64,000 bases of DNA, from the NCBI GenBank assembly GCA_964019425.1, contig OZ025802.1, positions 868,001 through 932,000 on the forward strand. The letters run 5' to 3'. This document shows, piece after piece, positions 14,860 to 64,000 of this stretch. Each line of letters starts with the position of its first letter. The first letter of the stretch is position 1. Below the pieces are notes generated by a model. The model had not been told where the DNA came from, searched no databases, and saw only the letters and a list, made by a program, of their open reading frames with translations. This stretch comes from Flectonema sp. DT1601 (taxonomy: Eukaryota). Made by a program: the position numbers and the translations under genes.

Positions 14860-17800
14860 AGCTTTCTGGTGACTTGGGTGAACTAAAGCAGGACTTGGGC
14901 TGGCACGCATCTGCTGCGGGCAAGGCCACCCAGACTTGTGAGTCTCGCCTGAAGCCAGTCGAAGAGTTCGCGACTGAAGTATTTAAGCAGTCACCATCAA
15001 CCAGAATGAAGATATTGATTGTCGTTACTGACGGTGTCATGACTGACAAGGATGAACTTGCTACAACCACTGCTGCTCTCGTTGCCCAGGGAGTTAAGAT
15101 CTTTGCTGTCAACGTCATGAAGGGGGCGTCCGCGACCAACACCGACGATGTTGCGTTGGCGTCTCTCGAATCGAAGATCGTCACGACGCCGGCGGTGCAG
15201 AATGCGCAGGGTTCGGACTTGGACTCCCTTTCGGAGTTGTTTGACACCTTCTGTGATCCAAGTGGCAAGTGGGGAGCTACTGTTACTGCGGGTACAACGG
15301 GAACGACTCAGGTGAAGAAGTGCAGCGATCTCACGACGGTCCTCCTCTGTGACGCTAAGCTGACATGTGATTGGGATGGAACTTCTCTGCTTTGCGGAGA
15401 CCACGCATGTTTCACTCACTGTAATGAGACAACTTGTCTTTCGGATCCTCAGAACACTTGCAATTGGAATGCCACTTCCCAGTCCTGTGAAAAGATTCCG
15501 TGTGACGAGGTGACAAAACAAGATGAGTGTGAGAAGCACACGGAGTGTACTTGGGACGTAACAAAGTCACCTCAATGTACTGAAGATCCATGTCCAGCTA
15601 GAACTGAGAATGCTTGCATTCAGTTGAATGGATGCCAATGGGCAACTGACCCAGCCCCTGCGAAGTGTGAACCTATCCCATGTAACTTTGGAAACGACTC
15701 TGTGGCGTGTAACGCGGAGCCAGGGTGTGAATTCGACGACGTCTGTCCTGATGCGGTAGACCAGCTTTGCAGATTGAAGCCGTGCGCTCAGGACAAGCAC
15801 TTGACTCTGACCGGATGTCAGGCTGATCGCCTTTGTGTTTGGAACTCAAGCAACCAATGCGAACAGGCAGCTTGTGTTCAATACCCAGATGAGAAGTGTT
15901 GTGATCATTATTCTAACTGTCATTGGGATGTTAGTCAGTCTCCAGCAGTTTGCTCAGAGAAGTATTGTCCAAGGACTCACGACAACCAGGTTGAGTGTGA
16001 CAAGGATACGAAATGCATGTGGAACTCAACTGACGGTACCTGCATTGAGAAGAACTGTGTCGAACTGGAAGAGTGTCGGTGCAGAGCTGACGCTGAGTGC
16101 TTTTGGGATCATCAGCACCACACTCCTCACTGTTCAGACTCAAAGTTCGGAGAGTGTCCTGTTTTGGATGTCGTCTTTTTGATTGACGCCTCAGGTTCAA
16201 TGGGATGGAGATTCGGAAGACATCCAAATGGTTTCTACGCCTTGATGGAGATCTTTCGTGACTGGATGATGACCGTTAGTCTTACTGGTGAGAAGGGAGG
16301 TGAAAACAAACTTGGAACAGTCGACGGTATCAGAATTGGTTTTATCCAATTTTCTGGTTCCAACCCGCGTAGGGGGCGAAGAGGATCCGCATGGGCGAAG
16401 AAAACCCCAGCGAACACGGGAACTGGCGGTCGTCTCTCTGGTGACCGTAACGAGTTGCATGCTGACATTGATTGGCATGAGAATAAGTTTTACAGATGGG
16501 GGACGATGATCGAAAAGGGGTTGAACATGGCCGGTGATGTGTTCGATGCTGCTCACGCCACCAATGGAAGAAAGAGAATATTGATCATCATATCTGATGG
16601 TAGAATTTTTGATCCGTCAAAGCTCGCTAACGCGCGTAAGGTTCTTAATCAGGAGAATGTTCAAACTTTTGGTGTCGTAATCAGAAGACAGGCTGGACAC
16701 ACGAAGGCTGATCGTGACGCTGAGAGTACTCTGAAGCCAATCACTTCTGATGTTCACGATGAGCACTACATGAACATTCAGATGGATGAGGTCAGAACAG
16801 ACATGCTTGACTTGCTCTGTGATCCAAATGGTCCTTGGGGACACTTAATCGTTGATCAAACAAAGACTCAGGCTGGTGTTCACAGGCCGTGCACTCATTA
16901 CCAGGGTAACGCTCAGACTTGTGCTGCAGACCCTGGATGTATCTTCTCCCCTACCACAAACTTGTGTGTTGACTCTCCATGTTCCCATCACTGTGGTGAA
17001 GTACAGTGTACCGCTGATAACGTTAACTTGTGTGTGTGGAACTCTACAACTGGTGACTGTTGGAAGGACACGGAGTGTGCACACACAACGAAGAACACTT
17101 GTGAAGGAGACAGGGTTGGATGTAACTGGGACGACACTCGCGATCCTAAATGTGAGAAGACTCCTTGCACTTATGACTCTGAGACTAATTGTTTATTAGA
17201 TCAAACGTGTGAATGGACTACTGACCCAGTTACTGCTGCTGTAGGATGTACACCTATCAAGTGTTTATACAATGACAGCTCTACTTGTGGTAATGATCCT
17301 GAGTGTGAGTGGAGGACTAACATCTGTACTGGTACTGTAGACTGTGAGGAGAAGAAGTGTACTTTCACATCTCAAACAGTGTGCCTGAAAGACCCTGCCT
17401 GTGAGTGGGAGAACAGCAAGTGTCAGACTCAACCATGCGCTCATTATTTAGAAGAATCTTGTTGTGACAAGGTTGATGAGTGCAAATGGGATGTGACGAC
17501 TACTCCAGCAGTGTGTGATGAAGCCAAATGCCCAAAGTACCCTGACCCAACTCAGTGTAACGCTGACACTGAGTGCTTCTGGACTGCTAACGCGACAGGT
17601 GTTGAGAAGTGTCTGCCACTTGACTGTTCGAAACTTACAGACAGGTGTGGGTGCGACTCACACCCAAAGTGTTACTTCAAACCAACTCCAACTGGAGGTA
17701 TGTGTACCGTTGCAGAGTTCGGAGAATGTCCAACTCTTGACATTGCTATTATTATTGATGGTTCGGGTTCGATGAGACGGAGATTTGGTAAACACCCGCA

Positions 17801-64000: not shown

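What the first reader, a model, noticed from the sequence alone, without database searches (positions are those of the whole stretch)
14860..64000. Tandem array of ~13,000-aa multi-VWA/lectin membrane receptors
Seen: copy B gives a signal peptide and ~2380 N-terminal aa, and copy A gives ~10,700 further aa through the TM helix and tail. The two overlap by 5.7 kb in the same frame. Together they imply one polypeptide of ~13,000 aa with ~19 VWA domains, 3 CTLD modules, ~28 EGF-like repeats and many short Cys repeats. Established: VWA (MIDAS), CTLD and EGF domains mediate adhesion and ligand binding. Inference: a giant multivalent capture, adhesion or surface-coat receptor present in at least two tandem copies. 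I do not recognise this architecture as a named family.
Basis: partly seen in the sequence, partly recalled or inferred. Interest (0 to 1): 0.85.

Follow-up and report, generated by a model that had tools for sequence, protein, structure and literature searches.

The report
Giant diplonemid food-capture lectin receptor
A single-celled eukaryote, likely a diplonemid, carries head-to-tail copies of a gene for a predicted 13,000-amino-acid membrane protein with 19 VWA and 3 lectin domains that likely grabs food for uptake, and near-identical copies differ mostly at the predicted binding sites, including a swap of the motif that would set which sugar is bound.

Summary
Observation confirmed, with corrections. 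Copy A (14860, after an N-gap, to 47551, three predicted 3' introns) and copy B (ATG 51120, off the window end) overlap by 5,737 nt with 36 differences. The composite is 13,131 aa: signal peptide, CTL-VWA6-EGF26-CTL-VWA2-CTL-VWA11-EGF-TM-tail. Neither copy is whole in the window, but fragmentary orthologues from five named diplonemids tile it end to end and run through the introns. New here: (1) a third ~99%-identical copy differs at 41 of 180 positions in the tip lectin domain and has EPN where copy B has QPD; (2) 22 of 30 variable VWA sites lie on MIDAS-face loops, though pN/pS is below 1; (3) the tail keeps a [YF]xxPhi sorting-type motif; (4) two P. papillatum proteins that share a Bodo best hit fall in the multivesicular/lysosomal trafficking cluster and rise in poor medium; (5) the lectin module is shared with prokaryotic surface proteins. 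Best reading: a multi-ligand endocytic food or prey capture receptor with variable tips (0.55). I found no paper describing the family. No full-length transcript or protein has been seen.

The parts
51120..64000 (+). Copy B: 5' part of the gene (signal peptide, CTL1, VWA1-6, first ~12 EGF-like repeats); runs off the window
   Evidence: Open frame of 4,294 codons; domains
51120..51173 (+). Predicted signal peptide (hydrophobic N-terminus, judged by eye; no predictor run)
   Evidence: Sequence; similar N-termini in P0001 and P0148
51174..52130 (+). CTL module 1: a ~100-aa beta-rich subdomain plus a C-type lectin domain with QPD (51936) and WND (52005); a third copy has EPN here
   Evidence: AF2 pLDDT 92.6; VIA Z 14.9, rmsd 1.9, 122 aligned to CL-K1; Foldseek CEL-I E 3.7e-6; comparison with P0148
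52518..58263 (+). VWA1-3, start of VWA4, and Cys-repeat linkers (present only in copy B)
14660..14859 (.). 200-N scaffold gap; copy A starts abruptly behind it
14860..45877 (+). Copy A long exon, from mid-VWA4 to the Cys-rich region before the membrane (31 kb, no intron)
14860..20596 (+). Overlap with 58264-64000; 36 differences, 22 of them in VWA6 (17727-18392), none in the last 2 kb
16860..17726 (+). Typical inter-VWA linker: eleven ~25-aa, ~4-Cys helix-plus-hairpin units, weakly PSI-like
   Evidence: Alignment A4; AF2 pLDDT 84.4, pTM 0.52; VIA Z 2.0-2.7, 5 of 7 rows plexin, semaphorin, RON or Met chains
18738..22958 (+). Block of 26 EGF-like repeats (DEC...C.DP...W.C.C; 6-9 Cys each)
   Evidence: Atlas nearest clusters carry EGF_3 (weak); no Pfam or PDB profile hit
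23151..24101 (+). CTL module 2 (EPT, no WND: degenerate sugar site)
24486..26774 (+). VWA7-8 (MIDAS degenerate)
27276..28298 (+). CTL module 3 (QPD, WRD)
   Evidence: Pfam Lectin_C E 4.2e-5
28662..44795 (+). VWA9-19, each with a Cys linker (~515-aa repeat unit)
46014..46167 (+). Predicted exon 2 (Cys repeats)
   Evidence: GT-AG ends; orthologue alignment
46329..46869 (+). Predicted exon 3: Cys repeats, teneurin-type EGF, start of a conserved juxtamembrane domain
   Evidence: Pfam EGF_Teneurin E 2.2e-6
47013..47551 (+). Predicted exon 4: juxtamembrane domain, TM helix (47369-47437), ~37-aa tail with YQDF (47486)
47552..51119 (.). AT-rich spacer between the tandem copies; repeat unit 43,404 bp

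Best explanation
This is a tandemly repeated gene, likely from a diplonemid, for a predicted 13,131-aa single-pass membrane protein that likely works as a multi-ligand capture receptor, binding food or prey surfaces and carrying them into the endocytic route. SHOWN: the reading frames, the tandem layout, the domain order, MIDAS motifs in 10 of 19 VWA domains, QPD/WND in the tip lectin, and that differences between copies concentrate in the tip lectin and on VWA top-face loops. PREDICTED: splicing, the CTLD fold, and the linker as a chain of disulphide-bonded mini-domains. INFERRED: Cys and EGF stalks space about 22 binding heads along a rod that would be hundreds of nanometres long if extended (rough, not computed). 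The lectin heads would bind sugars through Ca2+, and the VWA heads would bind acidic residues through a MIDAS metal ion. Avidity would hold particles or polymers, and the YxxPhi tail would drive uptake towards multivesicular or lysosomal compartments. Copies would widen the ligand range by exchanging binding-loop variants (EPN, mannose-type, versus QPD, galactose-type; that assignment is recalled), while gene conversion would keep the stalks alike.
For: Orthologue fragments tile the composite: Hemistasia P0298 covers 9-4814, D. papillatum DIPPA_02028 2833-6289, Namystynia P0150 4226-8518, R. euleeides P0292 5145-13131. Transcriptome-derived orthologues come from 4 named species plus one source prefix (Hpha) that I read as Hemistasia. 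VWA1-6 pair one to one with orthologue P0001 (quick tree; supports 88-98, with one pair unresolved). P0148 versus copy B: 41 of 180 columns differ in CTLD1, against 33 of about 3,300 elsewhere. The closest named orthologous CTL1, from Hemistasia, has EPN. 22 of 30 variable VWA sites lie on top-face loops (22/458 versus 8/987; Fisher p 2.7e-6), and the EGF block is identical between A and B. P0148 matches A at 7, B at 8 and neither at 1 of 16 comparable sites. A 296-nt exact internal repeat points to recent conversion. [YF]xxPhi sits at the same aligned place in 5 of 5 orthologue tails. In the P. papillatum proteome, 2 of 4 stored rows whose best Bodo hit is BSAL_88760 are assigned to multivesicular-body trafficking (scores 0.78 and 0.67), both enriched in nutrient-poorer medium, one of them with 7 VWA, a signal peptide and a TM. 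None of the 4 is assigned to the cell membrane and none has a T. brucei hit (PMC12697944, S1 data).
Against: No binding, localisation or uptake data exist for this gene. The proteome rows are probable family members, not shown orthologues: DIPPA_03389 and DIPPA_02028 are not listed under those ids in the stored, cut file, and 2 of the 4 rows are 'unknown'. pN/pS between A and B is below 1 (VWA6 0.030 versus 0.044), so positive selection is not shown. Loops tolerate change anyway, sites in conversion tracts are not independent, and the loop set was defined after seeing the A/B differences. 9 of 19 VWA domains lack a full MIDAS, and CTL2 lacks WND. The tail motif is absent from 10 of 20 family tails, including 7 of 8 of the ~2,650-aa subfamily, and a 4-residue motif arises easily by chance. 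The longest transcript-derived orthologue is 6,951 aa, and the long ones start at internal Met residues; three carry the source label 'complete'. The origin of P0148 (other strain, allele or paralogue) is unknown. EPN/QPD predicts specificity imperfectly outside vertebrates (PMC5877582).
Confidence: 0.55

Rival explanations
1. A surface adhesin or coat: it anchors the cell to substrate, algae or a host, or supports gliding, as TRAP-family proteins do (recalled) or as proposed for bodonin, without cargo uptake as its main job.
For: The VWA profile's best PDB hits are integrin I-domains, collagen VI and a mussel thread matrix protein. The rod is very long, with 98 N-glycosylation sequons. Bodonins are proposed to attach B. 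saltans to prey and substrata (PMC4728078).
Against: Probable relatives are assigned to an internal trafficking cluster, 0 of 4 to the cell membrane. The tail keeps [YF]xxPhi and has no Trp.
Confidence: 0.2
2. A self/non-self recognition receptor (mate or kin recognition, or sensing of viruses, parasites or symbionts). The variable tips would be recognition alleles, or escape variants of a receptor that an enemy exploits.
For: Variation is confined to binding faces and is mosaic among three versions. The same CTL module is fused to protein kinases in Rhynchopus (P0026), so the module is also used in predicted signalling receptors.
Against: The tail is ~37 aa with no signalling domain. pN/pS is below 1. 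Enrichment of probable relatives in poor medium fits feeding.
Confidence: 0.15
3. The 13,000-aa protein is never made: the locus yields shorter products by internal trans-splicing or proteolysis, or the composite mixes paralogues of different length.
For: No record longer than 7,575 aa among 14 hits from 1,439 candidates of 5,478-17,432 aa. Transcript-derived orthologues start at internal Met residues. Orthologue P0001 lacks the EGF block (6,189 aa). Neither copy is whole in the window.
Against: A 31-kb stop-free exon. The internal starts lack hydrophobic leaders and differ between isoforms of one Trinity gene, as assembly truncation would give. Fragments from different species overlap by 590-3,370 aa in register.
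Confidence: 0.1
4. The tandem is partly an assembly artefact: a collapsed longer array or two haplotypes stitched together, so copy number and the A/B pairing are wrong.
For: The contig begins mid-gene at a gap; the 43.4-kb unit exceeds usual long-read length (recalled); the last 2 kb of the overlap are identical.
Against: The 3'-end-to-5'-start junction is gap-free. The 36 differences are clustered and keep the frame, unlike sequencing error. Even a collapse would imply two or more copies.
Confidence: 0.08

Closest known systems
Mannose-receptor family (MRC1, Endo180, DEC-205)
   Same: Type I membrane protein with CTLDs, short tail and a Tyr-type sorting motif; multi-ligand endocytosis (family features recalled). 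Foldseek and VIA hits include MR, Endo180 and DEC-205 CTLDs.
   Different: No CysR or FNII domain found; the 3 CTLDs are dispersed, each joined to a subdomain shared with prokaryotic proteins; 19 VWA domains; about nine times longer (MRC1 size recalled).
Megalin/LRP2 (recalled)
   Same: Giant modular receptor with Cys-rich repeats and EGF spacers; likely functional analogue.
   Different: No LDLa or YWTD hits, no NPxY in the tail; about three times longer.
C. elegans DIG-1 (13,084 aa; PMC8544517, passages)
   Same: Nearly the same size; contains VWA and EGF domains.
   Different: DIG-1 is an ECM protein with an Ig/FN3 N-terminus and only C-terminal VWA; this one has a TM helix, lectin modules and VWA throughout. 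Likely convergent.
Apicomplexan TRAP/CTRP (recalled)
   Same: Protist type I protein with tandem VWA domains and a short acidic tail.
   Different: No TSR hit, no tail Trp; has lectin and EGF blocks.
Bodonin / DGF-1 of kinetoplastids (PMC4728078; bioRxiv 10.64898/2026.07.27.741050; passages)
   Same: Large multicopy euglenozoan surface proteins proposed for adhesion to prey.
   Different: Those have about 7 TM helices and beta-helix ectodomains, and DGF-1 modules had no match in D. papillatum.
Bodo saltans BSAL_88760 (2,654 aa, 'membrane-associated protein, putative')
   Same: Best Bodo hit of a 7-VWA P. papillatum protein. Eight unnamed-in-my-calls proteins of 2,633-2,720 aa have a CTL-VWA2-CTL-TM layout and match this VWA profile.
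   Different: Uncharacterised and about five times shorter. I did not hold the Bodo sequence, so its link to that subfamily rests on length and on the supplement's BLAST hit.

Membership tests
VWA domain with MIDAS | Match to the VWA profile | tested here: met
   Pfam PF00092 above cut-off in 6 of 6 segments; integrin alpha-1 I-domain E 1.6e-9
VWA domain with MIDAS | DxSxS...T...D | tested here: met
   Complete in 10 of 19 domains; VWA4 lacks only the Thr at the aligned column; 8 are degenerate
VWA domain with MIDAS | Metal-dependent ligand binding | not testable with these tools
   Needs an assay
Ca2+-dependent C-type lectin CRD | CTLD fold | tested here: met
   CTL1 model, Z 14.9, rmsd 1.9, 122 aligned; CTL2 and CTL3 by homology and Pfam
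Ca2+-dependent C-type lectin CRD | EPN or QPD plus WND (PMC5877582) | tested here: met
   Met in 1 of 3: CTL1 QPD+WND; CTL3 QPD+WRD; CTL2 EPT without WND
Ca2+-dependent C-type lectin CRD | Sugar binding | not testable with these tools
   Needs a glycan array
EGF-like repeat (central block) | Six-Cys core with C-x-C, and a profile match | tested here: inconclusive
   Spacing fits in 26 repeats. No Pfam or PDB hit. Atlas top hits 0.91-0.93 carry EGF_3 on 25-49% of members, but recognition is low at 1510. Not folded.
PSI domain (linker units) | PSI fold | tested here: inconclusive
   Z 2.0-2.7 over 30-35 residues, rmsd 1.3-2.2; no Foldseek hit at E 0.001 or better
Mannose-receptor family | N-terminal CysR + FNII + 8-10 tandem CTLDs (recalled) | tested here: not met
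   Only 3 dispersed CTLDs; the N-terminus is the CTL module
LDL-receptor/megalin family | LDLa repeats, YWTD propellers, NPxY (recalled) | tested here: not met
   No such Pfam hit at E 0.01; no NPxY
TRAP/CTRP | VWA + TSR, sub-terminal Trp (recalled) | tested here: not met
   No TSR hit; the tail has no Trp
Bodonin/DGF-1 | Multi-pass TM domain of about 7 helices | tested here: not met
   One hydrophobic segment, at 13073
DIG-1 | Ig/FN3 N-terminal region; ECM protein | tested here: not met
   The N-terminus is CTL-VWA; a TM is present

The most novel reading that the evidence does not exclude
Diplonemids, and probably bodonids, recognise food with an undescribed family of giant endocytic receptors (2,600-13,000 aa) built from VWA heads, PSI-like stalks and a lectin module exchanged with prokaryotes. 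The tandem array acts as a diversifying repertoire: gene conversion keeps the stalks identical while shuffling binding loops and flipping the tip lectin between mannose- and galactose-type, giving one cell a programmable prey-recognition code.
Probability: 0.35. Interest if true: 0.88.

Novelty: new variant of a known kind. Interest (0 to 1): 0.74.

Why it matters
[quoted passage not shown] My search for diplonemid + prey + phagocytosis + receptor listed no paper titled on how they recognise food (listing only). This gives a concrete candidate in a genetically tractable lineage, with D. papillatum orthologue ids (DIPPA_02028, DIPPA_03389), and a one-domain test (EPN versus QPD CTL1 on a glycan array). 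At about 1.4 MDa it would be among the largest single-pass membrane proteins (comparison recalled), and its orthologues sit in databases only as fragments, which is probably why it is undescribed. Copy-to-copy variation confined to binding faces in a probably free-living protist would parallel immune-receptor and parasite surface families.

Tried and rejected
No whole genome is held, so copy number and the far side of copy B could not be read.

Run search: 2 runs, no RNA holder listed. Run X1 covers parts of the gene at depth about 2, may be the source sample, and leaves the spacer unbridged; X2 gives only scraps. Neither was used as evidence.

Metagenome contig scan with one VWA: 74 pattern matches, 0 confirmed. 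The alignment version had no usable motif.

The linker gave no Pfam hit for one typical linker, a weak Paramecium_SA hit (E 0.04) for the last Cys region, only spurious zinc-finger hits in PDB, no Atlas hit and no Foldseek hit. That does not show a new fold. A mixed linker+EGF alignment misaligned and was dropped.

Positive selection as the cause of the A/B differences is not supported by pN/pS.

Transfer of the lectin module from a named bacterial donor is not shown. The 34 rows I labelled prokaryotic (27 proteins: 11 named by source, 16 assigned by me from domain context) form one side of a branch (SH-aLRT 97). The eukaryote-type rows do not nest inside them, and the tree has no root.

Alternative genetic codes were not needed. 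Rfam gave 0 matches. Earlier findings of the scan: none.

Literature searches: diplonemid + von Willebrand gave 0 papers; the other listings showed none on this family. Of I saw 20 of 62 rows and 15 of 1,162. Subscription papers and bioRxiv supplements are not covered, the supplements of PMC10161547 were not searched, and the PMC12697944 table was cut when stored.

The careful VWA tree did not finish; the quick tree is cited. Scripts stopped early; 79 was rerun.

Full report
1. What is in the sequence. Six-frame translation gives two very long frames on the + strand, in the same frame: 14616-46025 and 51117 to the window end. The first holds 200 N at 14660-14859, so copy A starts at a scaffold gap. 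Positions 14860-20596 equal 58264-64000 at 99.37%, with 36 substitutions and no indel; the repeat unit is 43,404 bp. Copy A's frame runs into an intron at 45878. Three GT-AG introns of 136, 161 and 143 nt give a continuous frame through an EGF domain, a juxtamembrane domain, one TM helix and a ~37-aa tail to the stop at 47551. Joining B (2,381 aa) to A gives 13,131 aa, about 1.42 MDa, 8.5% Cys. The order is signal peptide, CTL, VWA x6, EGF-like x26, CTL, VWA x2, CTL, VWA x11, Cys repeats, EGF, TM.

2. Domains. All six segments of the two frames match Pfam VWA above its cut-off, and the 19-domain profile finds integrin I-domains and collagen VI in PDB. Ten of 19 domains have a complete MIDAS. 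The first CTL module folds confidently (pLDDT 92.6) and matches C-type lectin domains (Z 14.9). The CTLD follows a ~100-aa beta-rich subdomain that these searches barely tested. The linkers between VWA domains share 34 invariant Cys across 16 copies and are predicted as eleven helix-plus-hairpin units, weakly PSI-like. The central repeats have EGF-type Cys spacing, but only a weak Atlas lead supports the name.

3. Host and relatives. The host is therefore likely a diplonemid. A profile search of 1.84 billion representatives found 82 at E 1e-30 or better; I annotated 88 of the 150 listed. They include shorter paralogues (4,200-4,700 aa), VWA4+EGF60 proteins and a ~2,650-aa CTL-VWA2-CTL-TM group. 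No record reaches 8,000 aa, but orthologous fragments tile the composite: Hemistasia 9-4814, R. humris 717-4146, D. papillatum DIPPA_02028 2833-6289 (across the EGF block into CTL2 and VWA7-8), Namystynia 4226-8518 and 8558-13123, DIPPA_03389 7799-11734, and R. euleeides 5145-13131 (nine terminal VWA domains instead of eleven). Their C-termini align through all three predicted introns. Genomic orthologue P0001 is shorter (6,189 aa, no EGF block), so length varies.

4. The copies differ where they would bind. 22 of the 36 A/B differences fall in VWA6 (666 of 5,737 nt; binomial p 2e-12) and none in the EGF block. P0148, an unnamed record 98% identical to copy B, differs at 41 of 180 columns of CTLD1 against 33 of about 3,300 elsewhere, and reads EPN...WND where B reads QPD...WND. 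This motif is described as the key specificity switch of C-type lectins (PMC5877582, passages); EPN = mannose-type and QPD = galactose-type is recalled. The Hemistasia orthologue has EPN, so QPD is likely the derived state. Across A, B and P0148, 22 of 30 variable VWA residues lie in the five loops that Rossmann-fold topology places on the MIDAS face (p 2.7e-6). P0148 is a mosaic of A and B states, and two internal linkers share 296 identical nucleotides. Against a selection reading: pN/pS is below 1, the loop test is post hoc, and the origin of P0148 is unknown.

5. Clues to function. The tail carries YQDF, and the four other orthologue tails have [YF]xxPhi at the same place; 10 of 20 family tails lack it. 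In the P. papillatum subcellular proteome (PMC12697944; passages and rows of S1 data, file cut), four proteins have B. saltans BSAL_88760 as best Bodo hit and no T. brucei hit. Two are assigned to multivesicular-body membrane trafficking, a cluster the paper describes as enriched for lysosomal membrane components, and both are enriched in nutrient-poorer medium; two are unassigned. One has 7 Pfam VWA domains, a signal peptide and a TM. These are probable relatives, not shown orthologues. The paper's main text has no occurrence of lectin, adhes-, Willebrand, EGF or receptor, and the genome paper's main text has none of adhesi-, lectin or EGF.

6. Origin of the lectin module. Beyond diplonemids, the best hits, many at 80-99% query coverage, are surface proteins of Bacteroidota, Firmicutes, cyanobacteria and methanogens. 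In an unrooted quick tree of 88 modules, the prokaryote-labelled rows form one side of a branch and the eukaryote-type rows do not nest within them. The module is shared; the direction of transfer is open.

7. Mechanism and rivals. Most likely (0.55): a multi-ligand capture receptor whose stalks space lectin and MIDAS heads, whose tail drives uptake, and whose tandem copies diversify the heads. Rivals: adhesin or coat (0.2), self/non-self recognition (0.15), no full-length product (0.1). Separately, copy number may be mis-assembled (0.08).

8. Relation to known systems and verdict. It would work like the mannose receptor or megalin but fails their defining features. It matches DIG-1 in size only (PMC8544517, passages), and it is not bodonin or DGF-1 (PMC4728078 and bioRxiv 10.64898/2026.07.27.741050, passages). 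Nine literature searches found no description of the family, within the limits given under Tried and rejected. The feature is real and conserved: a new architecture of known domains with a directly testable specificity switch. Interest 0.74.

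Noticed in passing
window 1-2991 and 6230-11608: Two copies (99.97% identical over 2,991 nt) of a non-LTR retroelement ORF with RT and zf-RVT, a restriction-like-endonuclease-type motif (judged by eye) and an extra ~550-aa C-terminal extension with no Pfam hit.
   Followed up: partly
window 2991-5540 and 13250-14659: An AT-rich ~142-bp satellite, with an inverted block around 3965, flanks the retroelements and ends at the gap; a 212-bp x3 repeat lies at 12001-12646.
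   Followed up: no
composite CDS (window 51120-58263, then 14860-45877): GC at third codon positions rises from 0.42 at the 5' end to 0.77 mid-gene and falls to 0.61; possibly GC-biased conversion among internal repeats.
   Followed up: no
window 29739-30034 and 32826-33121: A 296-nt exact repeat between two linkers inside a 72%-identical 2-kb internal duplication.
   Followed up: partly
P0026, P0030: The same CTL module sits in ~1,500-aa proteins with a protein kinase domain (Rhynchopus humris and an unnamed record): candidate lectin receptor kinases in diplonemids.
   Followed up: no
P0002-P0008: A second giant group (5,500-6,500 aa) with 1-4 of the same VWA domains followed by about 60-68 of the same EGF-like repeats, several with a C-terminal TM.
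   Followed up: partly
P0014, P0162, P0170, P0171, P0228: Distant CTL-VWA proteins, four with 4 VWA domains and thousands of residues of Cys repeats (4,500-7,600 aa), from organisms not named in my calls; they may extend the family beyond Euglenozoa.
   Followed up: partly
P0027: A hit to the CTL-module query that also has a weak DGF-1_C match (E 0.002, below cut-off).
   Followed up: no
window 48398-48487 and 49026-49090: Short tandem repeats in the spacer (44 bp x2; 23 bp x2.8).
   Followed up: no
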